55,733 bases of DNA, taken from an uncultured Candidatus Saccharibacteria bacterium (GTDB taxonomy: Bacteria > Patescibacteriota > Minisyncoccia > UBA6257 > JAGOQP01). A model generated the notes under the pieces. It was not told the DNA's origin, ran no database searches, and saw nothing but the letters and a program-made list of their open reading frames with translations. Position numbers and translations under genes: made by a program. Positions 8,992 to 47,274 of the stretch are shown here, one piece after another. The stretch lies in contig CAYQSO010000003.1 of NCBI GenBank assembly GCA_964420205.1, positions 22,828 through 78,560 on the forward strand, written 5' to 3'. Position 1 is the stretch's first letter. Each line of letters starts with the position of its first letter.

Positions 8992-9087
8992 TTATAAAGA
9001 GAGATATCACGTTGGTAAATAACATAGAAGAGTTTATTGATGACAATGATTTCTTCTATAGAAAAAATAGAATGGAGAGAATGAATT

Positions 9088-9237
9088 ATGATTACGGTAG
9101 AATTTTATAATAAAATGGAAGAAAAGAATCTAAGTGCGGAAACTTATTTAAATTTATTATGCGATTATTTTGACTCAGCAGTGCTTGAAGAGTTCTTCGA
9201 ATTTGTAGAAGAACAAGAAGAGGAAGGGGCATTTTAA
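9088..9237 (+). CDS. Small acidic hypothetical protein (49 aa)
   Basis: Below track cutoff; ggagag SD upstream; ends 3 nt before the next ATG. Confidence 0.5.
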   Translation: MITVEFYNKMEEKNLSAETYLNLLCDYFDSAVLEEFFEFVEEQEEEGAF

Positions 9238-9239
9238 TT

Positions 9240-9878
9240 ATGACGAATCTAGCGTATAATTTCGCAGGTAATTTTGCATCAAACAATACAGAAAAAATTA
9301 ATAGAGAAGATTTTTATGAGATAGAATACGGTGGTGTAGAGGATATTTTATTCTTTTCTAAAAAGAAATACCAATTTCCTGAACCAGTAAACAATAAACC
9401 ATTTTTCTACACGTATTGTGTAATGGTTACAAATATGTACGAAATTACTAGTGCTGAAGATTATAAAGATGAGCCGTATTTTATAGAAGTATTAATGATC
9501 CCGTTGTTTAAATCTCTTCACTCTTCTAAACAGAAAGAGATAATTGAACATTTTAACTTAGATGATGAGGAATATAAGGAATTCTTAGAAGAATATAAAA
9601 ATAGTTCGATAGCTTATCTATCTGACGTAGCAACTTACCAGTATGCTGTAAGAGTTGCAAAAGAAGAAGCAGTATCGGAGAAAGACTTAGACTTTAAAAT
9701 AGACAGTGCTTTATTCTTTTTAGATATGTGGGATAGGATGTCAGGATTTTATTTAGATAGGTCTTGGAATATGATTGGTACTACTGGATGGGATAGTATC
9801 AAGTCTTTTACATCTGATAAGACAGACGTTGATTACACAATGAAAAGATATGAAACAAGTAAAAAGAGGAATAATTAA
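9240..9878 (+). CDS. Hypothetical protein
   Basis: 212 aa; tightly packed, same strand. Confidence 0.75.
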   Translation: MTNLAYNFAGNFASNNTEKINREDFYEIEYGGVEDILFFSKKKYQFPEPVNNKPFFYTYCVMVTNMYEITSAEDYKDEPYFIEVLMIPLFKSLHSSKQKEIIEHFNLDDEEYKEFLEEYKNSSIAYLSDVATYQYAVRVAKEEAVSEKDLDFKIDSALFFLDMWDRMSGFYLDRSWNMIGTTGWDSIKSFTSDKTDVDYTMKRYETSKKRNN

Positions 9879-10074
9879 TGTGCTATGTAAGATGCAATAA
9901 TTGTTATAAAGTTTATTGTGAAGAAGGTTACGATATGGAACTTTTTTCAGAAGGGAAGGAACCAATAAAGAATGGTTCAAAGGATGTTCGACCTGTAAGA
10001 CAGATGAATATTTAATTGATATAACAGAAGAAGAATTTTTTGAAGCATTAAATGATAAATACAATCGAGATTAA
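9878..10074 (+). pseudogene. Split zinc-ribbon ORF (two frames joined only by a -1 shift in a T6 run)
   Basis: Frame 0 is MCYVRCNNCYKVYCEEGYDMELF.. (stop at 10013). The -1 frame continues ..EWFKGCSTCKTDEYLIDITEEEFFEALNDKYNRD to 10074. The T6 run is at 9942-9947. CNNC and CSTC form a ribbon only in the fused product. Confidence 0.45.
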
Positions 10075-10089
10075 AAGAGGAAAATAACT

Positions 10090-10314
10090 ATGTCAAAAAA
10101 TAAAATAATATTACAACAGAAGGTAACAGAAGTTTATAAAGATAAACCGGATAAAATAATTGCTTTAGTGTATTGGTATAATGATGATGTAGGATTCAAA
10201 GAATTTTCTACACATTGTATTTATCCTAATAGTGCACACCCTGAAGCACTTAATCATGGTAATTATTATAAAGATATAGTACAAGCGATAGATGACTATA
10301 AAGAACGGAGATAA
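10090..10314 (+). CDS. Hypothetical protein
   Basis: 74 aa; agagga SD upstream. Confidence 0.7.
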   Translation: MSKNKIILQQKVTEVYKDKPDKIIALVYWYNDDVGFKEFSTHCIYPNSAHPEALNHGNYYKDIVQAIDDYKERR

Positions 10315-10320
10315 GAATTC

Positions 10321-11852: not shown

Positions 11853-12524
11853 ATGAACGATACAAGAACAATACATGAAAAAGCATTAGGTAGATTTCTC
11901 GATGATAAAAATATACAAACTGGAGAAGACTTAGAAGGTAGTAGATTATTATTAGTAGAAACTTCAAAAGACTATGATCTTGTAGAAAAGCTTCATAGTC
12001 TAGCAATTAGCCTAACTTTTAAAGGGTGTAAACTTAACGAGTTTTTAGAATACTTTTATGTACTTGATCCAGATTGTATTCATTTCTCAGAAAGTTATTA
12101 TTATTGCGATGGGTGCAGTAAATATGCACGACATTATGAATATGAAGCGCAAGACCAGTATTATATAAATACAGATACTTGTGAAGTAGTTTGTAGAAAT
12201 TGTGTAAAAGATTATAAAGAAGAGTATATAGAATATTTACAAAAACACAAAAAACTCTGTACATTATTGTCAGAAGAAGAACTTATAGAACTCGATTATG
12301 TAATTTTAGAAGAATACAATTTTAATAATGATATGTACGGTGGAAGACAAGCAGATAAAGAAGAAATAGATAAAGTTTTTGATAAAGAAGACATAAAAAT
12401 TTTTTATTGGTTACATACTAGCCATATGTTTGGAATATGGTATACTATTATTGTACATAAAAATGATTTAGAGAAAGCAAAGCAACTTCTTGAGGAAAAG
12501 TTTTCAGATTTTAAAGAGGATTAA
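11853..12524 (+). CDS. Hypothetical Cys-cluster protein
   Basis: 223 aa; aaggag SD upstream; CDGC...CRNC cluster. Confidence 0.75.
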   Translation: MNDTRTIHEKALGRFLDDKNIQTGEDLEGSRLLLVETSKDYDLVEKLHSLAISLTFKGCKLNEFLEYFYVLDPDCIHFSESYYYCDGCSKYARHYEYEAQDQYYINTDTCEVVCRNCVKDYKEEYIEYLQKHKKLCTLLSEEELIELDYVILEEYNFNNDMYGGRQADKEEIDKVFDKEDIKIFYWLHTSHMFGIWYTIIVHKNDLEKAKQLLEEKFSDFKED

Positions 12525-12528
12525 AATA

Positions 12529-12735
12529 ATGAATTATACTGAAGAACATAATGATAATGAAAGGTTAGTAGTAAGAATTAATAAGGAATTTGATCTTCAT
12601 ATAGTAAAGACAGATGAAGGTTATGTGATAGACTGTTATACCTTAAATAAAGAAGGCAAACCTGTAGAGGATGATGTAGTAGCTACAACGTGGTTTTTCG
12701 ATAGTGATTTAGAATCAGAAGAAGACGGGGGTTAA
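12529..12735 (+). CDS. Hypothetical acidic protein
   Basis: Track ORF 12490..12735 trimmed to ATG 12529, after the upstream stop; agagga SD. Confidence 0.65.
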   Translation: MNYTEEHNDNERLVVRINKEFDLHIVKTDEGYVIDCYTLNKEGKPVEDDVVATTWFFDSDLESEEDGG

Positions 12736-12739
12736 AATA

Positions 12740-12949
12740 ATGAGTATAGTTGGATATATAATTATCCCAAGAGAAGACTCAGTATATATTCTTGAACAAC
12801 TTGGTTGGAAACATTTATTTTCTAATGATGAGTTAATAGAATTAGCTATTGAGAATCTTGAATCTGAAAAACAAGACATTAAAACAGTAGAGGAAGCCAT
12901 TAAAATTTTGAATGATAACGAGATGGCTGTGATTCTTATAAAAAGATGA
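12740..12949 (+). CDS. Hypothetical protein
   Basis: 69 aa; ggggg SD upstream. Confidence 0.65.
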   Translation: MSIVGYIIIPREDSVYILEQLGWKHLFSNDELIELAIENLESEKQDIKTVEEAIKILNDNEMAVILIKR

Positions 12950-12960
12950 GGACTAAGATA

Positions 12961-13347
12961 ATGAGTACATCTAAAAAAGCAATAGAAATTTTACAAAGAA
13001 CCAATGACGGCGATAACCTTTCACCATTACATCTCTCTTTAGTAGAAGGTGCTGTTAATAGGTTTCTTAATGAAAAAGGTTCAAAAGCTTTTGAAGAACT
13101 TCATAGCCAATGTATAAGTGAAGAAGGTTATAAACAACCGTACTTCCACGATGTAGAGCATATGACAATAGACCATACAGGGTACGTGTACTACAAAGGG
13201 AATAGAGTAGAACATTATGATTCACCATGGGCTTATTCAGAAGATGCTAAGGTAGCTTTAGTAGAGCTTAAAAGACGGTGTGAGATACTTGAATCGCAAC
13301 GTAAAGAAGTTAATACAACTAATGTTATATGGAAGTGGGAGGACTAG
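12961..13347 (+). CDS. Hypothetical protein
   Basis: Track ORF 12946..13347; ATG 12961 has gagg 8 nt upstream. Confidence 0.7.
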   Translation: MSTSKKAIEILQRTNDGDNLSPLHLSLVEGAVNRFLNEKGSKAFEELHSQCISEEGYKQPYFHDVEHMTIDHTGYVYYKGNRVEHYDSPWAYSEDAKVALVELKRRCEILESQRKEVNTTNVIWKWED

Positions 13348-13351
13348 ACTT

Positions 13352-13684
13352 ATGGAGAAAGAAACAAAAGAGTTATGCAATTATCTAGATAATTGCGAAA
13401 TAAAGTTTAATGCTCAAGACTTTAAACAATTATTCAATTATATGGATAATTGCAAGTACATGGGGCTTCCTATTACATTGGATCAGTATTGGTCAGAGGT
13501 ATTGAATGCTTACCACGACTCTTTGTATAAGAAAATAGAAGACCTTGAAAAAGAGTTAAGTGAAGTACAAACTTCTAATATTAAGCACAACCAGAAGATG
13601 ATAGCAGGAATGTTTGCTGTTGCTATAAAAGATACGGACCCTGAATCAGCGAAAGAAATTGCCAATAAAGTAGCAGAAGAATAG
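13352..13684 (+). CDS. Hypothetical protein
   Basis: Track ORF 13280..13684 trimmed to ATG 13352 (gggagga SD, follows the upstream stop). Confidence 0.7.
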   Translation: MEKETKELCNYLDNCEIKFNAQDFKQLFNYMDNCKYMGLPITLDQYWSEVLNAYHDSLYKKIEDLEKELSEVQTSNIKHNQKMIAGMFAVAIKDTDPESAKEIANKVAEE

Positions 13685-13734
13685 CAGAATTAAAGTGACA
13701 GGTTATGAATACGATAAATATTTAGGAGAATAAA

Positions 13735-14007
13735 ATGAAAATAAACGCAAACCAACTAGATGACGAGCTAACGGTTTTGCAAATAAGAGAAGCTGCTAAA
13801 GAAATACTTGAATCTCACCGAACGTTAAAAAAAGCCATTGAAGATTTAAACTTATATTTAAATGACAATGACATTAAAAATTGTAAAAAAGTTTTAAATC
13901 GTTTTAAATTTGACAAATACCAATCCTTGATAACACTTAATTACCATGAATTTTTAAAACGACTTAATGGTAGTGGGTTTGAGGCTATAATTCAAGCTAT
14001 AGATTAA
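13735..14007 (+). CDS. Hypothetical protein
   Basis: 90 aa; aggag SD upstream. Confidence 0.7.
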   Translation: MKINANQLDDELTVLQIREAAKEILESHRTLKKAIEDLNLYLNDNDIKNCKKVLNRFKFDKYQSLITLNYHEFLKRLNGSGFEAIIQAID

Positions 14008-14057
14008 AAGAGGAATAGGCGATGGAAAAGAAAAAATTTAAATAAAAGGGGTTGAAA

Positions 14058-14321
14058 ATGAACAATAAAGAGAATATAAAACAATTTTTTAAAGAAGCTT
14101 TTCATCCGCAAGATGCTTTGTTACAAGAGCTCACTGCACAAGAGCTTATTGATACAGTTATTTGTAATGAAGCGTGGCATGATATCCCTAGACTTGATAA
14201 AGTATTCGAAGAGCTTCTTCAGACGAGAATAAATGAAGCAAGAGAAATGTATAACCACAATAGAGATAAAATTGAGAAAGAATTAATTCAACAGTCGCCT
14301 CAATATTATAAAGGAGAATAA
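14058..14321 (+). CDS. Hypothetical protein
   Basis: Track ORF 14052 (TTG start); ATG 14058 preferred, aagggg upstream. Confidence 0.7.
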   Translation: MNNKENIKQFFKEAFHPQDALLQELTAQELIDTVICNEAWHDIPRLDKVFEELLQTRINEAREMYNHNRDKIEKELIQQSPQYYKGE

Positions 14322-14323
14322 TT

Positions 14324-14527
14324 ATGGAATTTAAAATAAATTTAACTAAAGAACAAGAGAAGGCTCTTTTAAAAGAGCTTCAAGATAGTAAATCAATATA
14401 TGAAAAACTTGATGATCTATTTTATGCTATAAGAACTACTTACGGTGTGGAATATATTTTTAAGTTAGTAGACAAACTAAATCAGATGCCTTTAAATAAA
14501 ATAAAAGAATTTATAGAAAAGGAGTAA
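14324..14527 (+). CDS. Hypothetical protein
   Basis: 67 aa; aaggag SD upstream. Confidence 0.7.
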   Translation: MEFKINLTKEQEKALLKELQDSKSIYEKLDDLFYAIRTTYGVEYIFKLVDKLNQMPLNKIKEFIEKE

Positions 14528-14531
14528 AACT

Positions 14532-14984
14532 ATGACAGCAGCAGAGAAAATAACATTTAATGGGATTAAAGATTACCTTAGACAGTTCTGTGGTACAGAA
14601 CAGTATTGGAAACGTTCAATATTTGGGAGAGAAACAGGGTTTGTATATACAGACGGAGTAAAAGCTTTTTGTGAGAAAGCAGAGGCTCAGTGGTTTATAG
14701 ATAATATGAATTCCTATATGTCAAAAATCAATAAAGTTAACGACGCTTTCTTTTCAGTATCTATACAAGTAAATGAAAAACAGGAGGCAATGTTATTGAT
14801 TACACATGAAGTATATTCCCAAATGGATAGAAAACCAGAAGATAGAATAGTTATAAGGCAGAAAATCCCATATACGGATTTACCTGTAACTGGAGAGGAT
14901 AAATATAAATTCTTTTTAGCCCTCTCTAATATAAGAGAAGATGGACTAAAAGAGTATTGTTTAATGGTGCCGTCAGAGTATTAG
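14532..14984 (+). CDS. Hypothetical protein, possibly DUF6876-like (plasmid/phage accessory family)
   Basis: 150 aa. FCGTEQYWKR...FVYTDGVKAFCEKAEAQWFIDN resembles, from memory, the GTExY..h...YTDGV....a.WL.D signature. Unverified. Confidence 0.7.
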   Translation: MTAAEKITFNGIKDYLRQFCGTEQYWKRSIFGRETGFVYTDGVKAFCEKAEAQWFIDNMNSYMSKINKVNDAFFSVSIQVNEKQEAMLLITHEVYSQMDRKPEDRIVIRQKIPYTDLPVTGEDKYKFFLALSNIREDGLKEYCLMVPSEY

Positions 14985-16746: not shown

Positions 16747-17766
16747 ATGAGCAATGAGCAAATTAAATTAAATGATGAAAAAATAAAAGAACTTTCCTAC
16801 GTAAGTTCTACTGGACTTACTAGAGAGGAAGAAGACAAGATAGTTAAGTATGTACAAGACAACCCTATAGAGATATACTGGGATTACAGAGACGAACTTT
16901 CTAAAGAGCAAATAGAAGAAATATTTGCAGATACTTCTACAGAAGAAAAATTAATGGAATGTGTTTGGTCAGTTCAAGATTCTATTATGGATATGAACTT
17001 AGATTATAGTTTTTCACTTGAAACAGAATTTCAAGATCAAGTACTAAAAGAATTCGACTTAGAAGATATTGAAGACGATAGAAAAGAATCTCTGTATGAA
17101 TTAATAAGGGACAATATAGTTTTCGATTGGAATTTCGATAAGCTCTTCAGTAAGTCTTCTGTAAACGTGGTTGTCACCGCACATAGCAACTATGATTGTT
17201 TATCTAGTGATTGGGCAATGGAGTCAACCTACGAGTATTATGACAGCTATTTTGGAGATATGTTAGACTTCCTTAATATAAACCCGGCGAAGTTTAAGGA
17301 AGAAGTAGACAAGATCGATTATCTTAATACAGGAGGAGAGTTTCCTGACTTACCAGAAAGGAACGATAAAGAAGTAATTAAGATAGAAGACTTATTACAA
17401 GAGTTAAATAATAATACTTCACCGAGTAACTATATTTTTATAACAAGAATGCCAGTAGATGAAGCTATTGAGTTCTTTAAGGAGAAAGAAAAAGCAGAGT
17501 ACGTTCTGATTAAGAAAGATACAATATCAGGTTTATTCTCTCATTTTCAAGGAGGAGGATCTCTCTTAGAATGCTATGTAAAGCAAGACTCCTTTATAAA
17601 AATAAAAACAGATAAAAGTAAACATACTTGCCTAGACATAGAAGTAGAACCTGTTAAACATTATTATACAGTAGCAGATGTATATGGCATATACAACAGT
17701 GAGTTTGAGCGAGGTGGAATAGATTTAATAGAAAGAAAGGGTAGTAAAGAATGTCAAGTTTCATAG
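16747..17766 (+). CDS. Acidic hypothetical protein, partner of the AAA+ ATPase
   Basis: 339 aa; aggag SD upstream; overlaps the downstream ATPase gene by 16 nt. Confidence 0.75.
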   Translation: MSNEQIKLNDEKIKELSYVSSTGLTREEEDKIVKYVQDNPIEIYWDYRDELSKEQIEEIFADTSTEEKLMECVWSVQDSIMDMNLDYSFSLETEFQDQVLKEFDLEDIEDDRKESLYELIRDNIVFDWNFDKLFSKSSVNVVVTAHSNYDCLSSDWAMESTYEYYDSYFGDMLDFLNINPAKFKEEVDKIDYLNTGGEFPDLPERNDKEVIKIEDLLQELNNNTSPSNYIFITRMPVDEAIEFFKEKEKAEYVLIKKDTISGLFSHFQGGGSLLECYVKQDSFIKIKTDKSKHTCLDIEVEPVKHYYTVADVYGIYNSEFERGGIDLIERKGSKECQVS

Positions 17767-18818
17767 TAAATAATAAAACAATAACATTTTTTGATGGGGA
17801 TGATGTAAGTATTGTAAAAGAACTACCATCGAATATATACTCTCTTAGGGAAGGGAAGTTTGGTTTGTATCTAGAAATAGAAGAAGAGTTTAAGCTTCCC
17901 GATAAAATTTATGGGGATACTATAAAAATATCAGATAGAGTAAAGAAAACTTTCAATAGTAGGACTACTAATACAGGTGTGCTTTTACATGGTGCTAAAG
18001 GTTCTGGAAAAACATTACTTACAAAGTATATATGTAACGACCTTTTAAAAACTCAAAATTTACCTGTAATTAAAGTTAATAAGGCTTTTGATCCCGAAGG
18101 GTTTAGTTCGTTTATGAATTCTCTAAAACAAGAAGTAGTTGTACTTTTTGATGAGTTTGAAAAAACCCATCCACAGGATAGGAGAAATGAAGACAATCCC
18201 AACCCTCAACAAACTCTTTTAAGTTTATTTGATGGTGTCTATAATTCTAAGAAGTTATTCTTGTTAACTTGTAACGATAGTTATGGGATTGACGACCATT
18301 TTAAAAATAGACCAGGAAGAATTTATTACTCAATTGAGTTTTCTGATATAGAAAAAGATGTTTTAGAAGAGTACTGTAAAGATAATTTAGTTAATAAAGA
18401 TAATCTTGAAAGTGTGATTATGATGTCTAATTTTTATGACCTCTTTACTTTTGATATCTTAGCAGCTCTTGTTGGGGAAATGAATTTACATGAAATAGAT
18501 GCGTTTGAGGCAATTAAATATTTAAATGTGGGTTGTAATTCTGATAACGATAGACTTTATAAAGTAACAGTGGTTAAAAATGGGAAAGTGTTTGAAACCA
18601 ATGATAAGGAAAGATTGAATCCTACTTCATCTAGAGACTATTGGTTCGATGATATTAAGGGAGATAGGATATTTGAAGGGACGTTAACACCTGACATGGT
18701 AGTTAAGGTAGATTTAAATATACCTTCCTATACTTATCAATTTGATAAAGATACTTTAATTATATTTGAAGGATTATATGAAAAAGATTTTAATCTTAAA
18801 AAGTTTTTAACAGTGTAG
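17751..18818 (+). CDS. AAA+ ATPase
   Basis: 355 aa; Walker A GAKGSGKTLL, Walker B VVLFDEFE, sensor-1 LLTCN, RPGR arginine motif. Confidence 0.8.
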   Translation: MSSFIVNNKTITFFDGDDVSIVKELPSNIYSLREGKFGLYLEIEEEFKLPDKIYGDTIKISDRVKKTFNSRTTNTGVLLHGAKGSGKTLLTKYICNDLLKTQNLPVIKVNKAFDPEGFSSFMNSLKQEVVVLFDEFEKTHPQDRRNEDNPNPQQTLLSLFDGVYNSKKLFLLTCNDSYGIDDHFKNRPGRIYYSIEFSDIEKDVLEEYCKDNLVNKDNLESVIMMSNFYDLFTFDILAALVGEMNLHEIDAFEAIKYLNVGCNSDNDRLYKVTVVKNGKVFETNDKERLNPTSSRDYWFDDIKGDRIFEGTLTPDMVVKVDLNIPSYTYQFDKDTLIIFEGLYEKDFNLKKFLTV

Positions 18819-24882: not shown

Positions 24883-25344
24883 ATGAGAGGGTTTAGCGCA
24901 GTGGGTTTGTACTACCCACAACACCCAGAGAACATTGGTTCTGTACTAAGGGCTTCTGATTGCTTTGAATCAGCGTTCGTTGCAATAGGAGGGACAAAAT
25001 ACAAACGCTGTAGTACAGACACTTACAATACTTATAAACACAAACCATTACTACAAGTAGAAAATTTAAAAGATGTAATACCGTTTAACTGTATCCCAGT
25101 AGCAGTAGACTTACTCGACGATGCTGTGAACATTCATGAGTATGAACACCCAGAAAGAGCTTTCTATATATTCGGGCCAGAATATTCTACGCTTGATAAA
25201 AATGTTTTAGAGTATTGTAAAGATAAAATTTACATTCCTACTAAAGGATGTCTTAATCTTGCAATGGCAGTTAATATAGTACTATATGATAGAAATATGA
25301 AACTAAAAAGAAAGATGAGTGAAAATTATGAAAAAAGAATTTGA
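24883..25344 (+). CDS. SPOUT-family (SpoU/TrmH/TrmL-like) RNA 2'-O-methyltransferase
   Basis: 153 aa; three SpoU motifs PENIGSVLRASDCF, YIFGPEYSTLDKNVL, GCLNLAMAVNIVLYD; minimal TrmL-like size. Confidence 0.75.
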   Translation: MRGFSAVGLYYPQHPENIGSVLRASDCFESAFVAIGGTKYKRCSTDTYNTYKHKPLLQVENLKDVIPFNCIPVAVDLLDDAVNIHEYEHPERAFYIFGPEYSTLDKNVLEYCKDKIYIPTKGCLNLAMAVNIVLYDRNMKLKRKMSENYEKRI

Positions 25345-26752: not shown

Positions 26753-26782
26753 TTGACAAAGCGTAATTAAATGTGATATAAA
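26753..26782 (+). promoter_or_regulatory. Sigma-A type promoter with extended -10
   Basis: TTGACA (26753-26758), 18-bp spacer containing TG, TATAAA (26777-26782); 21 nt upstream of ATG 26804. Confidence 0.6.
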
Positions 26783-26803
26783 AATTGAAAGTGGGGATAG
26801 AAT

Positions 26804-28837
26804 ATGAATTTTATTAAATTTAAAGAAAAAGTAGATGCCCAATTCACTCTTATGAGTAAGGGCGAGTTATTTAGAACATCGGTTACTAAAGATAAGCTTT
26901 GGGAAACCTATTTATCGTCTTTTCCTGAAGGGTCAAATCCAATTTTTAGGGAAAGAACAGAGCATGATTGTAATTGCTGTAAACAATTTATCAGGGCAGT
27001 TGGAAATGTAGTGTCTATAATTGACAACAAGCTAGTGAGTATCTGGGATATAACTATTGACACTGAAGAAGAAAAACCGTATCAAGTAGTAGCTGACTCT
27101 TTAGCTAAATTAGTTAAATCTGCACCTATTGATAATGTATTTAAACATACAGAACGCACGGCAGGAACAGATAAAAATTATGAAGATAACGATGATGGTG
27201 TTATTACTTGGGACCACTTCTTTGTTAATATACCTTCTCAGTTTGTAATGAGAGGTGTTGATATAGGTAACAAATTAAGTGATTTTCGTTCTACACGTGA
27301 TGTATTATATCGTGGTTTAACCGAAATTAATGATGAATCAGTAGACACTGTTTTGGAATTGATTGCACAAAATAGTTTATATCGTGGTGAAGAACATAAG
27401 AACTCCTTAAAGATATTTAAAAAATTAAAAACTGAATTTAATAAGTTATCTGTAGAGGAAAGAGATAACTTTGTGTGGTCAATAATTAGTACATTATCGC
27501 CAGCCATAGCTAAGATTCGTAATACTTCTATAGGTACCCTTTTAGTTAATCTATCGGAAGGTAAAGAATTGGAGTATGCAGTTAAAGCATTTGAAACTAT
27601 TGTTGCACCAACTAATTATAAAAGGCCGACTGCTCTCGTGACTAAAGCAATGGTGGAGAAAGCTAAGAAAACAATAGAAGAACTCGGACTTACATCAGCA
27701 CTTGAAAGACGCTATGCCCAGTTATCAGATATTAATGTAAATAATATTTTATTTGCTGATAGAAATGCTAAAAAACAAATGAAAGATTCAATAACATCTG
27801 TATTTGATGAGATAGCTGATTCTTCAATAAATCCAAAATCTTTTAATAAAATTGAGGAAGTGGCTATTGATAAATTTATTTCAGACGTATTGCCTACAGC
27901 TAAGACAGTTGAAGTTTTATTTGAAAATAAACATCAAAAGAATTTAGTCAGTCTTATAGCACCTGTAGATTCTAATGCAAAACCATTATTTAAATGGAGC
28001 AATAATTTTAGCTGGTCTTATAACGGAGATTTAACAGACTCTGTAATCAAGGAGAGAGTTAAACAAGCAGGTGGAAGTATTGAAGGCGATGTTTGTTGTA
28101 GATTAGCTTGGTATAATTATGATGATTTAGATTTACATATGATTGAACCTAATGGTTGTAAAATTTATTTTGGTAATAAGGATAGTTCAAATGGTGGTCA
28201 ACTAGATGTAGATATGAATGCTAGTGGTAGAAATACAAGAAAACCTGTAGAGAACATTTTCTATAGAGATAAATCAAGAATGCGTGAAGGTGTTTATACT
28301 TTATTTGTTCATAACTATTGTAAGCGTGAAACTAATGATGTGGGTTTTGAAGTAGAAGTTGATATAAAAGGAGAACTCCATAGGTTTGAATACCAAAAAG
28401 CTGTTAAAAGTAAGGAAAAAATAAAAGTAATGGAGCTTGAGTATTCGAAGAAAAATGGTTTTAAAATTATAAAATCTCTTGAAAGTACAACAGTTTCTAA
28501 GAATATTTGGGGAATTTCTACTAACCAATTCCATAAAGTAAATGTAATGATGATGTCACCTAATTTCTGGGATGGACAATTAGGCATTGGAAACAAGCAT
28601 TATTTCTTTATGTTAGATGGTTGTGCTAACGAAGGACAAGCAAGAGGATTCTTTAACGAGTTTTTAAAACCAGAGCTTGACCCACATCGTAAAGTAATTG
28701 AGATTGTTGGAAGTAAAATGAAAACCCAAGAATCAGAAAATCAATTAAGTGGTATAGGGTTATCTAGTACACAAAGAAATAAAATAACAGTTCGTGTAAC
28801 GGGAACTGTTACTCGTATTATTACCGTTATAATTTAA
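26804..28837 (+). CDS. Large (677 aa) uncharacterised protein; C-terminal region possibly DUF2135/YfaP-like
   Basis: Largest ORF in the window; own promoter. N-terminal HDCNCCKQF motif. The segment DDLDLHMIEPNGCKIYFGNKDSSNGGQLDVDMNASG resembles, from memory, the DUF2135 signature. Confidence 0.8.
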   Translation: MNFIKFKEKVDAQFTLMSKGELFRTSVTKDKLWETYLSSFPEGSNPIFRERTEHDCNCCKQFIRAVGNVVSIIDNKLVSIWDITIDTEEEKPYQVVADSLAKLVKSAPIDNVFKHTERTAGTDKNYEDNDDGVITWDHFFVNIPSQFVMRGVDIGNKLSDFRSTRDVLYRGLTEINDESVDTVLELIAQNSLYRGEEHKNSLKIFKKLKTEFNKLSVEERDNFVWSIISTLSPAIAKIRNTSIGTLLVNLSEGKELEYAVKAFETIVAPTNYKRPTALVTKAMVEKAKKTIEELGLTSALERRYAQLSDINVNNILFADRNAKKQMKDSITSVFDEIADSSINPKSFNKIEEVAIDKFISDVLPTAKTVEVLFENKHQKNLVSLIAPVDSNAKPLFKWSNNFSWSYNGDLTDSVIKERVKQAGGSIEGDVCCRLAWYNYDDLDLHMIEPNGCKIYFGNKDSSNGGQLDVDMNASGRNTRKPVENIFYRDKSRMREGVYTLFVHNYCKRETNDVGFEVEVDIKGELHRFEYQKAVKSKEKIKVMELEYSKKNGFKIIKSLESTTVSKNIWGISTNQFHKVNVMMMSPNFWDGQLGIGNKHYFFMLDGCANEGQARGFFNEFLKPELDPHRKVIEIVGSKMKTQESENQLSGIGLSSTQRNKITVRVTGTVTRIITVII

Positions 28838-28862
28838 TTAATAATTAAAAAGGAGAAGAACT

Positions 28863-29255
28863 ATGTTTGAAAAAGCAACTCGTATGAAACTGAGGTTTGA
28901 AACACCTAAAGGGCAGCTAGATGTTGAGGATTTATGGAACCTTCCATTAACAAGCAACATGGGAAAAGCTAATTTAGATGATGTTGCTCGTTTGTTACAC
29001 AAACAGTTAAAGAGTGGAGATAATATATCTTTCGTAGAAAAAGATAAAAAGTCAGACGAAACAATTCAATTAAAATTTGATATTGTTAAACATATTATTG
29101 ATGTTCGTTTAACTGAAAGTGAGGCTGCTAAAAACGCACGTCTAAGAGCAGAACAAAAACAACAACTATTAGCTCTTATTGCAGAAAAAGAAGGGGATAC
29201 TTTAAAAGGGTTATCTTTAGAAGAATTACGCAAAAAAGTAGCTGAGCTAGATTAG
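28863..29255 (+). CDS. 130-aa partner protein with coiled-coil C-terminus
   Basis: aaggag SD upstream; 25 nt after the 677-aa gene; followed by a hairpin terminator. Confidence 0.75.
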   Translation: MFEKATRMKLRFETPKGQLDVEDLWNLPLTSNMGKANLDDVARLLHKQLKSGDNISFVEKDKKSDETIQLKFDIVKHIIDVRLTESEAAKNARLRAEQKQQLLALIAEKEGDTLKGLSLEELRKKVAELD

Positions 29256-29263
29256 TATTCTTT

Positions 29264-29281
29264 GCCCGATTAATTTCGGGC
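29264..29281 (+). terminator. GC hairpin terminator
   Basis: gcccga ttaatt tcgggc; T-rich sequence follows after a few nt. Confidence 0.55.
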
Positions 29282-29355
29282 CTTGATTTAATTTTTTATT
29301 TTACTTGGATTAAAAAATTAAATTAAAGTGAAAACAAAAAGAAAGGAACACATAC

Positions 29356-29664: not shown

Positions 29665-29730
29665 ACTAATTAACTTAAAAGTTAATTAGTTTTCTTTTTA
29701 GATTATAAATAATATAATCTAAAAAGAAAA
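29665..29730. promoter_or_regulatory. Two adjacent perfect palindromes (12-bp and 18-bp arms)
   Basis: actaattaactt aa aagttaattagt (29665-29690) and ttttctttttagattata aataa tataatctaaaaagaaaa (29690-29730). Confidence 0.8.
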
Positions 29731-29753
29731 CTAAGAAAGAAAGGAGAAAGAAA

Positions 29754-30044: not shown

Positions 30045-30213
30045 TGAAGCAAAAGATTTTTTATTCGAGTTAATAGGGGCTGCTGTAGATGCCATAGAGA
30101 TAGAAGAAGACGGTATACTATATCTAAACTCAAATAAAATGAATATAGTAGTTATGAGTGATAAAGATATAAGAGAAGAGTTAGAAAAGTTTTCGGATAG
30201 TTTATGTTATTAG
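30031..30213 (+). CDS. Hypothetical acidic protein
   Basis: 60 aa; aaggag SD upstream. Its 3' end forms the left direct repeat of the cassette. Confidence 0.6.
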   Translation: MKLSNEAKDFLFELIGAAVDAIEIEEDGILYLNSNKMNIVVMSDKDIREELEKFSDSLCY

Positions 30214-30233
30214 AGAAAGAGGATAAGATAATG
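30171..30233. repeat. Left copy of about 60-bp direct repeat flanking the 30231 cassette
   Basis: aagagaagagttagaaaagttttcggatagtttatgttattagagaaagaggataagataatg. Confidence 0.85.
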
Positions 30234-30746
30234 AAAATAACATTAGAACAAATTAAGGACCTTGATCTTTACATTGGTGGCTATAAAAAATTAGCCAATT
30301 ATATAAGAGATAATAATATTAAAGAACCTTTTGATTGCAAAATCATTAAAGAGAGTAATGACGTTGATGATTTTCTTTGGGTGATGTGCCATGAGCAATT
30401 TATCGATGCCAAAACATTAAGGCTCTTTGCTGTTTGGTGTGCTAGAGAAGTATTGAAATTAATAAAAAACCCAGATCCAAGAAGCATAAAAGCTTGTGAT
30501 GTTACGGAAAAATTTGCTAATGGAAAAGCTACTCAGGAAGAATTAAATATTGCTAAAGATGCTGCTTGGGATGCTGCTTGGACTGCTGGGGCTGATGCTG
30601 CTAGGGCTGCTACTGCTAGAGTTGCTGCTAGGGCCGCTATCGGGGCTGCTAGGGCTGCTGGGGCTGATGCTGCTAGGGCTGCTAGGGCTGCTGGGGCTGA
30701 AAAAGAAAAGCAATTTAAAAAGTTGTGTGAAATGGCAGATTTATAG
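30231..30746 (+). CDS. Alanine-repeat protein, paralog B (possibly Imm5-like helical domain plus (A-A-R/W-x)n tail)
   Basis: Track ORF 30204 trimmed to ATG 30231 (gagg SD). CAREVLKLIKNPDPRSIKACDVTEKFANGKATQEELN, then DAAWDAAWTAGADAARAATARVAARAAIGAARAAGADAARAARAAGA. Confidence 0.75.
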   Translation: MKITLEQIKDLDLYIGGYKKLANYIRDNNIKEPFDCKIIKESNDVDDFLWVMCHEQFIDAKTLRLFAVWCAREVLKLIKNPDPRSIKACDVTEKFANGKATQEELNIAKDAAWDAAWTAGADAARAATARVAARAAIGAARAAGADAARAARAAGAEKEKQFKKLCEMADL

Positions 30747-33869: not shown

Positions 33870-34991
33870 ATGCTTTTTAGTAAAACAGCTTATAATATTG
33901 AAATATCCCATATGATTGGAATGATTTTACAAAATCAGTCTGAAATAATACCTAATAAATTTACTAATAGGTATGATTGTTCCATGTTTATGGATAGGTT
34001 TATTAATAAAATAAATACACAGGAAGATATAGTAAAAGAAACAAAACCTTTATTAAAAGATATAAATAATATTGAATCTTATTTAGGGATACTTTGTAGC
34101 GAAGCCATAGAAAAAGGGTTCTATAAGACTACAGATGAAATATTATTTAATTTAATAACACAAGACAATTTAGATAACTGGTGTATTTCAGATATCAATG
34201 GAAGTAGACAGATATTTTGTGTTAAAAGCATGAAAGATATAATAGAATTATTAGAATTTGATACAGTTAATAATCTTGTTATAATGCCGGAAATTTGGTT
34301 TTCTCCCAATGTGTATAAAAAAGTGATTAAATTGTTAAAACCGTTCGACGTAGAAAGAACAAAAAAGAGTGGAAGAACTGCTATAAAAATTTTAAGCAAA
34401 GATTTTACAATAGAAGATGTTAAACAAATTCTATATGATTCACAAGAGCTTTGTGTTAGCGGTAAGTTCGATTTCTTCCCCACCCCCGATGAGCTTGTTA
34501 AAATTTGTCATGATTTATTAGAATATGAAGTAGGTAATTTAGTGTTAGAGCCTTCTGCCGGAACAGGTAATTTAATAAAAGATTTTCCATATAAAAGTAA
34601 TATTGTAACAGTTGAAGCAAATAAATTTTTCTGTAATATTTTAAAAAGAAAATACCCTGAAATAATAAATAAAAATTGTTTATTTGAGGAATTCAAAACA
34701 GAAAATTCTTTCGATAGAATTATAATGAATCCCCCATTTTCAAAACGACTTGATGCAAAACATATTTTAAAAGCATTTGATATGCTTACTAATGATGGTA
34801 TATTAGTAGCTATTCATTCTACCGGAATACTAAGTGGTTCTGATAAAAACTCTAAAGCATTTCAAAAATTATATGAAAAAAATGGGGTATTTCAGAAAGT
34901 TTATAAAGGGATGTTTGATAGTTCTGGGAAAGGAACTAAAATAGATGTAGTATTAAGTAAATTTAGGAAAGTTAATAATGAAAACATATAA
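33870..34991 (+). CDS. N6-adenine DNA methyltransferase (gamma class) with about 200-aa N-terminal domain of unknown function
   Basis: 373 aa; motif I LEPSAGTGNL precedes motif IV IIMNPPFS. Confidence 0.75.
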   Translation: MLFSKTAYNIEISHMIGMILQNQSEIIPNKFTNRYDCSMFMDRFINKINTQEDIVKETKPLLKDINNIESYLGILCSEAIEKGFYKTTDEILFNLITQDNLDNWCISDINGSRQIFCVKSMKDIIELLEFDTVNNLVIMPEIWFSPNVYKKVIKLLKPFDVERTKKSGRTAIKILSKDFTIEDVKQILYDSQELCVSGKFDFFPTPDELVKICHDLLEYEVGNLVLEPSAGTGNLIKDFPYKSNIVTVEANKFFCNILKRKYPEIINKNCLFEEFKTENSFDRIIMNPPFSKRLDAKHILKAFDMLTNDGILVAIHSTGILSGSDKNSKAFQKLYEKNGVFQKVYKGMFDSSGKGTKIDVVLSKFRKVNNENI

Positions 34992-45736: not shown

Positions 45737-46525
45737 ATGATCATCGGAATATGTGCACCAACACAACAAAGTGGTAAAACAACTGTAGCTAATTATTTTT
45801 GTGAAAAATATGGATTTAAGAAAAAAGCATTTGCTACAACTCTCAAGAAAATGTTGATAGTACTCTTAAAAGATTTAAAAATACATGAAGAAAGAATTTT
45901 CTATTACACAGAAGTGGCAAAGGAAGAGGAAATACCAGAACTAGGTAAAAGTTATCGTTATCTTATGCGTTCTCTTGGTACTGAATGGGGCAGAGTACTT
46001 ATTCATGAAGATACTTGGGTAAAGACTACAATGGCTTCTCTCTCTTCTTTAAATCAGGTAGTTTTTGAAGACATAAGAATGTTAAATGAACTAAAAGCAA
46101 TTAAAGATAGAAAAGGTATTTTAATAAAAATAATAAACCCAAGAGTTGATAACGACAGGTCTCACGCTTCTGAGGGTGAATTGGACAATGTGCAGGAAGA
46201 TTATTTAATTATTAATGATGGAACTTTTGAAGACTTGTATAAAAAAGTAGATGAAATAATGGATAAAGAAATTAGATTGGGGCTAGAAAAAGAAATGCAA
46301 GAAAAAATAAATAATGTAACAATACAGTGCCCAAAGTGCGGACAGATTTATACTATCTCTGAAAACATGATCTCAGACAGCATTGTTACATGTCAAAATA
46401 ACAATTTTTATAAAGATGGAATTTTCCATAGATTCTGTGGAACAAAATACTTACAAAAATTACATATAGTAGAAAAATATGATAAATACATAAGGGATTT
46501 ACTTCACGCAACCAGAGGTCATTAA
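45737..46525 (+). CDS. P-loop dNMP-kinase-like protein fused to a C-terminal zinc ribbon
   Basis: 262 aa; P-loop ICAPTQQSGKTTVA; LMRSLGTEWGR...DTWV resembles the phage deoxynucleoside-monophosphate kinase family; C-terminal CPKCGQ...C..C. Confidence 0.55.
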   Translation: MIIGICAPTQQSGKTTVANYFCEKYGFKKKAFATTLKKMLIVLLKDLKIHEERIFYYTEVAKEEEIPELGKSYRYLMRSLGTEWGRVLIHEDTWVKTTMASLSSLNQVVFEDIRMLNELKAIKDRKGILIKIINPRVDNDRSHASEGELDNVQEDYLIINDGTFEDLYKKVDEIMDKEIRLGLEKEMQEKINNVTIQCPKCGQIYTISENMISDSIVTCQNNNFYKDGIFHRFCGTKYLQKLHIVEKYDKYIRDLLHATRGH

Positions 46526-46527
46526 AT

Positions 46528-47274
46528 ATGGGGTTAATAGTTCTTTTCTTACAATATGATACAGAAAAATACCCTGGATCACTTCTTTATTTAGAAAAGT
46601 ACTTAAAAACTATTAGACAACATTCTGTTAATAAGATAGTTATTATAGATAATAAAAAAGAAGAAGATAGCTTAGAAATTATAGATAATTGTAAAGTTAA
46701 AATTGGGGGGGATAATTCTCATTGGGAGTTTTCTGGTTGGAATAAAGGGTTAGAGCTTATTAAGACGATGAAGCTTTCTTATGACGCTATTCTTTTTGTA
46801 AATGATTCTTTCCAAAACCCCGCTTTTATTTCACCCACTAGAATAATATGTGATGAAAGTATAAGTAGATGTATAGGTGAAAAAGCTTTGTTAGGTGCAA
46901 GGGGTGGTTCTGGAAAAGATCTTTTCTTCATAGGTACTTACAATTTATATACGTGGGTAAGAACACATTGTTTTATGATGGAAAAGTCTGTTATAAAAAT
47001 AGTTAAAGATTTAATAACATTTCATAGGCCTTTCATTGATATGGCTACTTTATCAAAAGTAGAACCACCCTATTTTAGCGATACACAAGCAATAAGTAAT
47101 AATTTAAAAAATAAAATTATTAATTGGTTATATGAAGGTGGTACATGGCACAGTGCTTTTAAATTTGAAGATGACCCTGAACTATTCAAAATGAAATCTT
47201 TAGCATACCTCAATGAATTGGGGTTGACAGCACGAGCAGAAAAGAGTAGAATAGCTACTATTAAACTAGATTAA
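46528..47274 (+). CDS. Hypothetical protein, possibly GT-A-fold glycosyltransferase-like
   Basis: 248 aa; starts 3 nt after the upstream stop; KIVIIDNKKEED and ILFVNDSF are weakly GT-A-like; contains a G7 tract. Confidence 0.6.
   Translation: MGLIVLFLQYDTEKYPGSLLYLEKYLKTIRQHSVNKIVIIDNKKEEDSLEIIDNCKVKIGGDNSHWEFSGWNKGLELIKTMKLSYDAILFVNDSFQNPAFISPTRIICDESISRCIGEKALLGARGGSGKDLFFIGTYNLYTWVRTHCFMMEKSVIKIVKDLITFHRPFIDMATLSKVEPPYFSDTQAISNNLKNKIINWLYEGGTWHSAFKFEDDPELFKMKSLAYLNELGLTARAEKSRIATIKLD

What the first reader, a model, noticed from the sequence alone, without database searches (positions are those of the whole stretch)
26753..29281. Self-contained two-gene unit (677 aa plus 130 aa) with its own host-type promoter and terminator
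A near-consensus promoter precedes the largest ORF in the window: TTGACA, 18-bp spacer with TG, then TATAAA. A 130-aa coiled-coil protein follows after 25 nt, and then a GC hairpin (gcccga/tcgggc). The surrounding small genes are packed in long coupled strings with few such signals, so this looks like an autonomous moron-style module.

The 677-aa protein has no family I can name. It has an N-terminal HDCNCCKQF motif. Its C-terminal segment DLDLHMIEPNG..IYFGNK..NGGQLDVDMNA recalls, from memory, the DUF2135/YfaP beta-sandwich. The final 90 residues (HYFFMLDGC..ARGFFNEFL...LSGIGLSSTQRN) look strongly conserved in character. A large protein paired with a small one, and transcribed independently, is the typical shape of defence or anti-defence modules.
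Basis: partly seen in the sequence, partly recalled or inferred. Interest (0 to 1): 0.65.

Follow-up and report, generated by a model that had tools for sequence, protein, structure and literature searches.

The report
Widespread two-gene phage module DUF8224
The flagged genes are a real, self-contained operon, and they belong to one of the most widespread gene pairs of unknown function in phages, some bacteria and some archaea; its recurring neighbours (tRNA genes and RNA-repair enzymes) hint at a role in keeping RNA intact.

Summary
That includes the 677-aa and 130-aa ORFs 25 nt apart, the TTGACA-18-TGn-TATAAA promoter and the GC hairpin.

The pair is not an orphan. The large protein is PHROG 1735 / Pfam PF26675. 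Earlier scan notes call that family DUF8224. The small protein is PHROG 2018. Both families have no known function.

- **Pairing:** in 158 related loci, the partner lay next to the large gene wherever the contig left room (two contig-end loci unclear). No third gene is conserved.
- **Spread:** the family has about 6,600 clusters at 50% identity. It occurs in unrelated virulent phages, in Lachnospiraceae and Methanobrevibacter chromosomes (where it is transcribed), and in a giant virus.
- **Structure:** the predicted model shows a core with no solved-structure match and an invariant CxxC...His. A TerD-/YfaP-like beta-sandwich is inserted into this core. Relatives without the insert also lack the partner.
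- **Context:** no defence-system model matches. In viral contigs the pair sits next to tRNA genes more often than chance allows. Several lineages place it beside Thg1-like, RlaP, KptA plus Macro, or SPFH genes.

My best guess, at about 40%, is an abundant RNA/tRNA maintenance or repair cofactor. The label "moron" is not supported. An anti-defence role remains possible.

The parts
26753..26782 (+). Sigma-70-type promoter: -35 TTGACA (26753-26758), 18-nt spacer with TGn (TG at 26774-26775), -10 TATAAA (26777-26782)
   Evidence: Read directly from the sequence. It is the only site of this class with a TGn extension in the window; 0.045 such sites are expected by chance. Whether the unknown host uses sigma-70-type promoters was not shown.
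26791..26797 (+). Purine-rich Shine-Dalgarno-like stretch GTGGGGA, 6 nt upstream of the ATG of the large gene
   Evidence: Read from the sequence. Its function was not tested.
26804..28837 (+). Large gene, 677 aa: a member of PHROG 1735 / Pfam PF26675 (DUF8224)
   Evidence: PHROG 1735 matches at E 1.4e-284 over residues 1-675. PF26675 is precomputed for its own cluster and all homologues. There are 6,579 representative clusters at E<=1e-3. The AF2 model has mean pLDDT 85.9.
26969..26980 (+). CxxC (C56, C59) of the HDCNCCKQF motif; together with invariant H138 it is a candidate metal site
   Evidence: C56, C59 and H138 are invariant in 34 long and short family members. Metal binding is inferred, not shown.
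28043..28498 (+). Inserted TerD-/YfaP(DUF2135)-like beta-sandwich (about residues 414-565) carrying the acidic DDLD and LDVDxN motifs
   Evidence: The only confident Foldseek hits in the PDB are 2qng (E 9e-4) and 2qz7, a TerD homologue (E 4e-3), both at probability 1.0. E. coli YfaP aligns at E 2e-7 by BLASTP and 83% probability by hhalign. The segment is absent from the ~540-aa short relatives.
28499..28834 (+). Conserved C-terminal alpha/beta domain (residues 566-677), mildly basic
   Evidence: Invariant positions include P586, W589, E619 and G650. The family's median net charge here is +4. It has no PDB fold match.
28863..29255 (+). Small partner gene, 130 aa: PHROG 2018; strong AAGGAG Shine-Dalgarno sequence 7 nt upstream
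   Evidence: PHROG 2018 matches at E 1.5e-44. The partner is directly adjacent in essentially all loci with room. The AF2 model (pLDDT 84) shows a small N-terminal alpha/beta part and a helix at residues 64-116. There is no significant PDB match.
29264..29302 (+). Terminator-like hairpin GCCCGA/TCGGGC (29264-29281) followed by a T-rich tail
   Evidence: Listed as terminator-like. Folding energy is -11.9 kcal/mol, z -3.5. Terminator-like sites are enriched after the small gene across lineages.

Best explanation
**What it is (near certain).** These two genes are a co-transcribed operon. They belong to an ancient, laterally mobile two-gene module: PF26675/DUF8224 (PHROG 1735) plus its small helical partner (PHROG 2018). 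The module is carried by many unrelated large virulent phages and, sporadically, by bacterial and archaeal chromosomes.

The large protein has a conserved core with no match among solved structures and an invariant CxxC...His, probably a metal site. A TerD-/YfaP-like beta-sandwich of the calcium-binding type is inserted into this core. The small partner occurs only with forms that carry this insert, so it most likely docks on the insert.

**How it most likely works (inferred, about 40%).** The two proteins form an abundant complex that binds or processes RNA, most likely tRNA. It would act as a cofactor, scaffold or protector alongside RNA end-healing and sealing enzymes. In a phage, this would keep translation running when host nucleases attack tRNA. 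In cells, it would serve the same RNA-damage response.

**Shown versus inferred.** Shown here: family membership, the pairing, the operon structure, transcription of the cellular copies, the domain layout, and the neighbourhood statistics. Not shown: RNA binding, metal binding, complex formation, and any effect on infection.
For: **Identity and pairing.**
- Of 158 loci with the large gene, the partner lies directly downstream in 143. In 3 more it lies downstream but its ORF call overlaps the large gene. In 2 it lies directly upstream. Eight loci are cut by the contig end and 2 are borderline.

**Self-contained unit.**
- After collapsing loci at 80% identity, no other gene family lies within three genes of the pair in more than 5 of 121 lineages.
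- A single metatranscriptome contig spans the large and small genes.

**Insert and partner go together.** Short forms lack both.

**Link to tRNA or RNA.**
- In 64 dereplicated viral lineages, 8 have a tRNA gene within 300 nt of the pair (2.3 expected, P=0.0006). Twelve have one within 1 kb (5.6 expected, P=0.0008).
- All 30 tRNA genes within 2 kb are on the same strand as the pair.
- Phage pf16 has 8 tRNA genes 1.5-4.4 kb upstream.
- Pfam confirmed these neighbours: Thg1-like (6 lineages, 4 within 851 bp), RlaP, KptA/Tpt1 plus Macro (directly upstream in Lachnospiraceae chromosomes), SPFH/Band-7, ATP-dependent ligase (10 lineages) and a metallophosphoesterase.
- RNA ligase 2 lies nearby in phage DSS3_VP1. 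A polynucleotide kinase-phosphatase and a ligase lie beside a short form.
- In this window, a SpoU-type RNA methylase lies 1.5 kb upstream.
- These families are the components of phage RNA-repair systems as reviewed in PMC7824862.

**Expression.**
- Arg CGY codons make up 46% in the pair against 10% in the rest of the contig (P=1.5e-7). ATT is preferred over ATA.
- Rumen and mouse-gut metatranscriptome contigs cover the cellular copies. Depth is well above the flanking genes.

**Conservation.** Identity is 40-60% between phages of Firmicutes, Proteobacteria and Cyanobacteria and archaeal copies. This fits a universal substrate.
Against: - No domain of either protein matches a known RNA-binding or RNA-processing fold or family.
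- The proteins are near-neutral overall. The median pI is 6.6 for the large protein and 6.2 for the small one.
- RNA-repair neighbours occur in only a minority of lineages, roughly a fifth at most. No genome-wide baseline for these families was available.
- tRNA regions of phages are known hot spots for accessory cassettes, so adjacency may reflect insertion preference rather than function.
- In this window there is no tRNA gene and no Rfam RNA near the pair.
- Many well-known carriers, such as Det7, phiCbK, BCU4 and KB57, show replication, nucleotide or NAD-salvage neighbours instead.
- Contig depth is a poor measure of expression.
- C-ending codon preference is not raised in the pair.
Confidence: 0.4

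Rival explanations
1. The pair is a counter-defence module acting on small molecules rather than RNA. The abundant complex would bind, sequester or convert nucleotide- or NAD-derived immune signals or metabolites. The TerD-/YfaP-like sandwich and the CxxC...His pocket would be the ligand sites.
For: - TerD-family domains are proposed ligand or Ca2+ sensors of the Ter system (PMC7824862).
- NAD-related genes recur near the pair. NAMPT lies directly downstream in DSS3_VP1. NMNAT and PnuC lie near the pair in KB57 and near a short form in Vibrio D148. KptA and Macro, which use NAD and process ADP-ribose, lie directly upstream in Lachnospiraceae.
- High expression and an early or middle genomic position would suit a sponge.
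Against: - Known sponges are small and evolve fast, whereas this pair is large and 40-60% identical across domains of life.
- It is constitutively transcribed from cellular chromosomes.
- No nucleotide-binding fold was recognised.
- The NAD-gene adjacency is anecdotal and was not tested statistically.
Confidence: 0.17
2. The pair is an accessory factor of DNA replication, repair or nucleotide metabolism in large phages. It would act on DNA ends or nicks together with DNA ligase, polymerase and helicases.
For: - ATP-dependent DNA ligase is the commonest identifiable neighbour, in 10 lineages. PolA and UvrD-like helicases are also frequent.
- The pair follows DNA polymerase in KB57, the clamp loader/RegA/MazG genes in Det7, and ribonucleotide reductase in Bosa-like phages.
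Against: - Ligase usually lies about 5 genes away. It is within 1 kb in only 1 of 10 lineages, which is no closer than chance.
- Such genes fill the early and middle regions of all large phages.
- The cellular copies lie beside translation and RNA genes, not replication genes.
- No DNA-binding or nuclease fold was found.
Confidence: 0.15
3. The pair is a defence, superinfection-exclusion or Ter-like stress module. It would protect the carrier, whether cell or resident phage, against other phages or xenobiotics, sensing Ca2+ or a ligand through the TerD-like domain.
For: - The pair is patchy in cells: 5 of 61 species in the Methanobrevibacter genus have it, four of them with two copies, and 0 of 60 relatives of the window's MAG have it.
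- It is a laterally mobile two-gene cassette.
- It has a TerD-like fold.
- Ter systems have been proposed to act against superinfecting phages (PMC7824862).
Against: - PADLOC gives no match.
- No TerB, TerC or TelA partner lies nearby.
- Conservation is far higher than is usual for defence genes.
- It is widespread (hundreds of records) among strictly virulent phage groups.
- No effector domain such as a nuclease, NADase or pore was recognised.
Confidence: 0.1
4. The pair encodes a virion or assembly protein, meaning a structural component or scaffold.
For: It is a large, well-expressed protein with a beta-sandwich domain. Weak Foldseek hits to Ig-like folds appear.
Against: - The pair always lies in early or middle accessory regions, far from structural modules.
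- It is present in podo-, sipho- and myovirus-type phages alike, and in cellular chromosomes without any virus genes.
- The Ig-like hits have probabilities of 0.06-0.18 only.
Confidence: 0.02

Closest known systems
Pfam PF26675 (called DUF8224 in earlier scan notes) / PHROG 1735, with partner PHROG 2018; examples are phiCbK gp273+gp274, Salmonella phage Det7 gp39+gp40 and Pseudomonas phage pf16 gp56+gp55
   Same: - Full-length profile match, with 44-54% identity to these phage proteins.
- Same length.
- Same CxxC...His and C-terminal motifs.
- Same gene order, with the small partner 10-40 nt downstream.
- The same flanking promoter and terminator are annotated in pf16, and a terminator in phiCbK.
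   Different: - This copy sits on a novel phage contig from marine sediment, binned with a ~1-Mb small-genome MAG. It has no nucleotide-level relative among GenBank phages.
- The family itself has no known function.
TerD family (tellurite-resistance protein TerD; Streptomyces SCO6318, PDB 2qz7; SAV2460, PDB 2qng)
   Same: The beta-sandwich fold of residues ~414-565 is shared (Foldseek probability 1.0, target TM 0.51-0.55). Both have acidic loop motifs of the kind that bind Ca2+ in TerD. The Ca2+ role of TerD rests on my own knowledge of the TerD structures.
   Different: - Pfam TerD gives no sequence-level match.
- Here the domain is an insert in a 677-aa protein, not a stand-alone ~190-aa protein.
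- There is no ter operon context.
E. coli YfaP (DUF2135, COG4676) of the yfaS alpha-2-macroglobulin operon
   Same: - The block LAW..DDLDLHMIEPNG..IYFGN...GGQLDVDM aligns to YfaP residues 137-215. BLASTP gives E 2e-7, and hhalign gives 83% probability with E 9e-6.
- The Alteromonas phage AD45-P1 homologue is annotated COG4676.
   Different: - The Pfam PF09906 model (48 positions) is not reached. The best score is E 0.14, in one of seven segments tested.
- The rest of the protein, and the genomic context, are unrelated to YfaP.
Scaffold-type cofactors of RNA-repair systems (Ro60/TROVE with Y RNA; SPFH/Band-7 with a tRNA-like RNA), as described by Burroughs and Aravind 2016 and reviewed in PMC7824862
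   Same: - This is a resemblance in function only: a non-enzymatic-looking, well-expressed, laterally mobile module.
- It recurs beside Thg1-like, RlaP, KptA/Macro, ligase and tRNA genes in phages and cells.
   Different: - There is no sequence or fold similarity to TROVE, vWA or SPFH.
- No associated non-coding RNA was found here.
- RNA binding is untested.

Membership tests
PF26675 (DUF8224) / PHROG 1735 | Full-length match to the family profile | tested here: met
   PHROG 1735 matches at E 1.4e-284 over residues 1-675 of 677. PF26675 is precomputed for the window's own protein cluster P0001 and for all 120 best homologues. PF26675 is absent from the local Pfam copy, so it could not be rescored.
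PF26675 (DUF8224) / PHROG 1735 | Family-invariant residues (CxxC, His138, R274, R302, W398/N400, P586/W589, E619) | tested here: met
   All are present in the window protein and invariant in 34 long and short members.
PF26675 + PHROG 2018 two-gene module | A PHROG 2018 partner directly adjacent on the same strand | tested here: met
   The small ORF matches PHROG 2018 at E 1.5e-44, 25 nt downstream. The same arrangement holds in 143 of 158 related loci, and the exceptions are explained.
TerD family (PF02342) | TerD beta-sandwich fold | tested here: met
   Foldseek finds 2qng at E 9e-4 and 2qz7 at E 4e-3, both at probability 1.0. This rests on a predicted model; pLDDT over the domain is mostly 83-96.
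TerD family (PF02342) | Sequence match to the Pfam TerD model | tested here: not met
   There is no TerD hit at E<=1 for the protein, nor at E<=0.1 for 69 homologues. I therefore call the domain TerD-like in fold, not a TerD family member.
TerD family (PF02342) | Ca2+ binding by the acidic loops | not testable with these tools
   The invariant DDLD, LDVDxN and EN motifs are suggestive only.
DUF2135 / YfaP (PF09906, COG4676) | Significant alignment to a bona fide member (E. coli YfaP) | tested here: met
   BLASTP gives E 2e-7, and hhalign gives 83% probability with E 8.9e-6 over 104 columns.
DUF2135 / YfaP (PF09906, COG4676) | Score above the Pfam gathering cut-off (22 bits) | tested here: not met
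   There is no match in the genome search. The best score is 12.7 bits, in one of seven segments tested.
Known anti-phage defence systems (PADLOC-DB 2.0) | Match of either protein to any defence-system model | tested here: not met
   Zero families match at E<=0.1 for both proteins.
Moron (an independently transcribed extra gene of a temperate phage) | Own promoter and terminator | tested here: met
   These are sequence predictions only.
Moron (an independently transcribed extra gene of a temperate phage) | Sporadic insertion in prophages between conserved genes, serving the lysogen | tested here: not met
   The pair is found in hundreds of records of virulent phage groups (Ackermannviridae hosts, phiCbK-like, Vequintavirinae, Bastillevirinae, N4-like). 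The window contig shows no integrase among the ORFs scanned.
RNA-repair system (ligase + nucleotidyltransferase + end-modifying enzymes + scaffold) | Co-location with RNA ligase, RlaP, Thg1, KptA or a kinase-phosphatase | tested here: inconclusive
   This holds in a minority of related loci, with significant proximity for tRNA genes and Thg1-like genes. In this window, only a SpoU methylase lies 1.5 kb upstream. No baseline frequency was available.
Ro60/TROVE or SPFH scaffolds | TROVE/vWA or SPFH domain | tested here: not met
   There are no such Pfam or fold matches.

The most novel reading that the evidence does not exclude
DUF8224 and its helical partner form a previously unrecognised, very widespread two-protein machine of RNA-damage biology. 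It would be an abundant, metal-dependent (Zn at CxxC...His, Ca2+ at the TerD-/YfaP-like insert) tRNA-binding guardian or repair cofactor. Thousands of virulent phages, and some bacteria, archaea and giant viruses, would use it to keep the translation apparatus working under nuclease attack. This role would be comparable in rank to Ro60/Y-RNA or RtcB/archease, but built on a fold with no solved relative.
Probability: 0.3. Interest if true: 0.85.

Novelty: new member of a known kind. Interest (0 to 1): 0.6.

Why it matters
The family is very large. It has 6,579 clusters at 50% identity, matches in 562 GenBank phage records, and more than 7,800 clusters at 90% identity. It is strongly conserved, at 40-60% identity between phages of distant hosts and archaeal chromosomes. 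It is transcribed in gut bacteria and rumen methanogens.

Despite this, neither protein has a known function, and only the beta-sandwich insert resembles any solved structure. Model and therapeutic-candidate phages carry it, including Kuttervirus, Klebsiella and Salmonella phages, and phiCbK.

Working out what it does would annotate thousands of genes at once. If the RNA link holds, it would add a new component to phage counter-defence and to cellular RNA repair. Laboratory phage-host pairs that carry the module already exist, so the question can be tested directly.

Tried and rejected
**Searches that found nothing.**
1. Pfam, NCBIfam and PADLOC scans of both proteins gave only sub-threshold noise: FtsK_SpoIIIE at E 0.008, RecQ5, and TIGR02574.
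2. Sequence searches of the PDB, with single sequences and with a 69-sequence profile, found nothing meaningful.
3. Foldseek of the large model against the PDB matched only the TerD-like insert. The N-terminal ~400 residues and the C-terminal domain found nothing. Against BFVD, only uncharacterised viral proteins came up, including one from a giant virus.
4. Foldseek of the small partner gave only E>=1 hits to helical hairpins such as ribosomal protein uL29. I rejected these as insignificant.
5. Literature searches for PF26675, DUF8224, phrog_1735, locus tags, and TerD-like phage proteins found no characterisation. The Burroughs and Aravind 2016 paper is not held.
6. Rfam and tRNA scans around the pair in the window were empty.
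7. Megablast of 16 kb around the pair against GenBank phages gave no match.

**Ideas tested and dropped.**
8. A third conserved gene. The largest apparent neighbour cluster was an artefact of antisense ORFs in GC-rich loci.
9. A partner for the short forms. The small genes downstream of short forms are unrelated to PHROG 2018.
10. C-ending codon preference as a mark of high expression. The pair is not an outlier on this measure.
11. Fusion architectures that might name a function. The best 150 representatives all have the same length.


Full report
**1. The observation**

- The + strand carries a 677-aa ORF (26804..28837), the largest in the window. A 130-aa ORF (28863..29255) follows 25 nt later, behind a strong AAGGAG ribosome-binding site.
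- Upstream lies TTGACA (26753-26758), an 18-nt spacer ending in TGa, and TATAAA (26777-26782).
- On the + strand of the whole 55.7-kb window, only three sites combine an exact TTGACA with a -10 box matching at least 5 of 6. Only this one has the TGn extension. Simulated sequence gives 1.06 such sites, and 0.045 with TG.
- The general promoter scan shows no excess of promoter-like sites in this AT-rich DNA (68 found, 81 expected). What counts is therefore the quality and position of this one site, not the number of sites.
- The hairpin GCCCGA/TCGGGC (29264-29281) is listed as terminator-like. It folds at -11.9 kcal/mol with z = -3.5. Its T-run is interrupted.

**2. Where the window comes from**

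- The window is bases 22828-78560 of a 78.6-kb contig. The contig belongs to a 1.03-Mb, 112-contig metagenome-assembled genome from marine sediment.
- Its 60 nearest relatives have genomes of 0.5-1.3 Mb (mostly 0.5-0.8), and none carries the gene.
- The contig has lower GC and a deviant tetranucleotide profile compared with the core contigs.
- Just upstream of the window it encodes, as read by eye from the translations, a terminase-like protein interrupted by an intein-like element, a portal-like protein and a RecD-like helicase.
- It is therefore most likely a phage contig binned with a small-genome organism. It has no nucleotide-level relative in GenBank phages.

**3. What the two genes are**

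- The large protein matches PHROG 1735 end to end (E 1.4e-284). The small one matches PHROG 2018 (E 1.5e-44). Both families are listed as of unknown function.
- The precomputed Pfam assignment for the protein and all its relatives is PF26675. That model is not in the local Pfam copy. Earlier notes of this scan call it DUF8224.
- tblastn finds the large protein in 562 GenBank phage records and the small one in 440. These include Ackermannviridae, phiCbK-like Caulobacter phages, Vequintavirinae, Bacillus Bastillevirinae, N4-like phages, Microcystis phages and others, at 37-54% identity.
- Annotated examples are phiCbK gp273/gp274 (followed by an annotated terminator), Det7 gp39/gp40, and pf16 gp56/gp55 (with an annotated promoter and terminator).
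- An exhaustive HMMER search counts 6,579 clusters at 50% identity with E<=1e-3, and 1,349 at E<=1e-30. The best 150 are almost all 650-720 residues long.

**4. The pairing**

I fetched 80 loci from prokaryotic genomes and 80 from viral contigs. I searched all their ORFs with profiles of the two proteins.
- Of 158 loci with the large gene, 143 have the partner directly downstream on the same strand. The median gap is 15 nt.
- In 3 more, the partner is downstream but its ORF call overlaps the large gene. In 2 it lies immediately upstream.
- Eight loci are cut by the contig end, and 2 have only 535-773 nt left.
- After collapsing loci at 80% identity into 121 lineages, no other gene family lies within three genes of the pair in more than 5 lineages.
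- A terminator-like hairpin follows the small gene in 27.7% of lineages. The figure is 7.0% for other gene ends in the same loci, and 0.7% between the large and small genes.

The "self-contained two-gene unit" is therefore real, and it is conserved as a unit.

**5. It is not only a phage gene**

- In three Lachnospiraceae genomes the pair follows ecfA-ecfA-(ecfT)-truA, then KptA and Macro. In Methanobrevibacter it lies downstream of an aEF-2 gene in a syntenic block in four loci, and close to GlmS in others. The ecf, truA, aEF-2 and GlmS labels are my reading of the translations. KptA and Macro were confirmed with Pfam.
- In that archaeal genus, 5 of 61 species carry the gene, four of them with two copies. 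It is an accessory gene there, not a core gene.
- Near-identical contigs in four rumen metatranscriptomes cover the archaeal pair. The coverage stops at the pair's borders and has a depth similar to aEF-2.
- Mouse-gut metatranscriptome contigs span the large and small genes. Their depth is 2-5 times that of the upstream ecf/truA/KptA/Macro genes. Contig depth is only a rough measure.
- In the window, the pair differs from the rest of the contig in Arg codons (CGY 46% against 10%, P=1.5e-7) and in ATT against ATA. Preference for C-ending codons is not raised.

**6. Anatomy**

*Large protein.* The AlphaFold2 model (69-sequence alignment, pLDDT 85.9, pTM 0.58) shows five regions:
- an N-terminal alpha/beta part with the CxxC (residues 1-150);
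- a helical part (151-300);
- a small alpha/beta part (301-405);
- a beta-sandwich (about 414-565);
- a C-terminal alpha/beta domain (566-677).

*The beta-sandwich insert.*
- Against the PDB, only the sandwich finds confident matches, and both belong to the TerD family: 2qng and 2qz7.
- The same segment aligns to E. coli YfaP (DUF2135). BLASTP gives E 2e-7, and hhalign gives 83% probability.
- Relatives of about 540 aa lack exactly this segment, so it is an insertion into a conserved core. Examples are Xanthomonas Bosa-like phages, Serratia 2050HW and Vibrio D148.
- These short forms also lack any PHROG 2018 partner. From this I infer that the partner works with the insert.

*Conserved residues.* Residues invariant across long and short forms include C56, C59, H138, R274, R302, W398, N400, P586, W589 and E619. 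They make up a candidate metal and ligand site.

*Small partner.* It is predicted to have a small N-terminal alpha/beta part, which is its most conserved region, and a 53-residue helix. It has no significant structural relative.

**7. Clues to function**

No defence-system model matches. The informative signal is context.

*tRNA genes.*
- Of 64 dereplicated viral lineages, 8 have a tRNA gene within 300 nt of the pair (2.3 expected under circular shifts, P=0.0006). Twelve have one within 1 kb (5.6 expected, P=0.0008).
- All 30 tRNA genes within 2 kb are co-oriented with the pair.
- Phage pf16 shows the same arrangement.

*Recurring neighbours.* Pfam confirmed these families:
- Thg1-like (6 lineages, four within 851 bp);
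- RlaP;
- KptA/Tpt1 plus Macro;
- SPFH/Band-7;
- ATP-dependent ligase (10 lineages, but not unusually close);
- a metallophosphoesterase.

Other cases fit the pattern. RNA ligase 2 lies near the pair in DSS3_VP1. A kinase-phosphatase and a ligase lie beside a short form. In the window itself, a SpoU-type RNA methylase lies 1.5 kb upstream. These are the building blocks of phage RNA-repair systems as reviewed in PMC7824862.

*Caveats.*
- These neighbours occur in a minority of lineages.
- NAD-salvage genes also recur.
- tRNA regions attract accessory cassettes.
- No baseline across whole phage genomes could be computed.

**8. Verdict**

- The finding is a true, well-bounded operon. It is a new member of a catalogued but uncharacterised family pair.
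- The "moron" label does not fit. "Anti-defence" is possible, but only in the indirect sense of RNA maintenance.
- I put about 40% on an RNA/tRNA-centred role as an abundant cofactor or guardian. I put about 17% on small-molecule or NAD-linked counter-defence, 15% on DNA metabolism, 10% on defence or Ter-like stress functions, and the rest on something else.
- Earlier notes of this scan had reached similar descriptions: the TerD-like insert, the obligate partner, and the adjacency to RNA-repair genes. I treated them as leads and re-derived each point here.

Noticed in passing
window 45737-55731: A run of sugar and polysaccharide-biosynthesis-type genes lies on what looks like a phage contig. 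It includes a TPP-dependent enzyme (47927-49690), an NAD-dependent epimerase/dehydratase (49680-50738), an aminotransferase (51416-52786), a polysaccharide pyruvyl transferase (52789-53799) and a family-2 glycosyltransferase (53780-55081). These could serve host-surface or DNA/virion glycan modification.
   Followed up: partly
window 24883-25344: A 153-aa SpoU-family (SPOUT) RNA 2'-O-methyltransferase gene lies 1.5 kb upstream of the pair (Pfam E 4.9e-18). This is an RNA-modifying enzyme on a phage contig.
   Followed up: no
G000 contig C3:5378-8641 (upstream of the window): A 1087-aa terminase-like ORF appears to be interrupted by an intein carrying a LAGLIDADG-type endonuclease (sequence motifs C..HG..., LAGIVDSDGY, VTHNC). 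A portal-like ORF (8685-10319) and a RecD-like helicase (12407-14548) follow it. I read these by eye and did not scan them.
   Followed up: partly
window 29687-29733: A perfect 20-bp inverted repeat (TAGTTTTCTTTTTAGATTAT...ATAATCTAAAAAGAAAACTA) lies in the gap between two small ORFs downstream of the pair. It could be a bidirectional terminator or an operator-like site.
   Followed up: no
window 30204-30746: A 180-aa ORF has an alanine-rich repetitive C-terminal half (AAWDAAWTAGADAARAATARVAARAAIGAARAAGADAARAARAAGAE), which is odd in a contig of 29% GC. Pfam gives no match.
   Followed up: partly
window 1776-2639 and 33870-34991: There are two DNA methyltransferase-like genes: N6_N4_Mtase at E 4.6e-54, and an N6-MTase-like C-terminal domain. 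The first is preceded by another near-consensus promoter, TTGACA-17-TATATT at 1709.
   Followed up: no
L068 7908-10400 and L034 8001-10542: Chromosomal copies of the pair in Methanobrevibacter and in a mouse-gut Lachnospiraceae genome are transcribed in many independent gut metatranscriptomes. Four of the five carrier species in that archaeal genus have two copies.
   Followed up: yes
L133 13697-21931; L111 16327-16724: One viral contig carrying the pair has a 12-gene tRNA cluster. It includes a CUA-anticodon (amber-reading) tRNA and two tRNAs that ARAGORN calls with four-base anticodons. Another contig encodes a tmRNA next to tRNA-Asp. This hints at recoding or stop-codon reassignment in those phages.
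   Followed up: no
L175 (Alteromonas phage AD45-P1) 2327-4953: Directly upstream of the pair lie a COG3864-type protein and a MoxR-like AAA ATPase. A phrog_2376 'ATPase' (related to clamp-loader AAA ATPases) also occurs in the window at 17751-18818. I did not test for any link.
   Followed up: no
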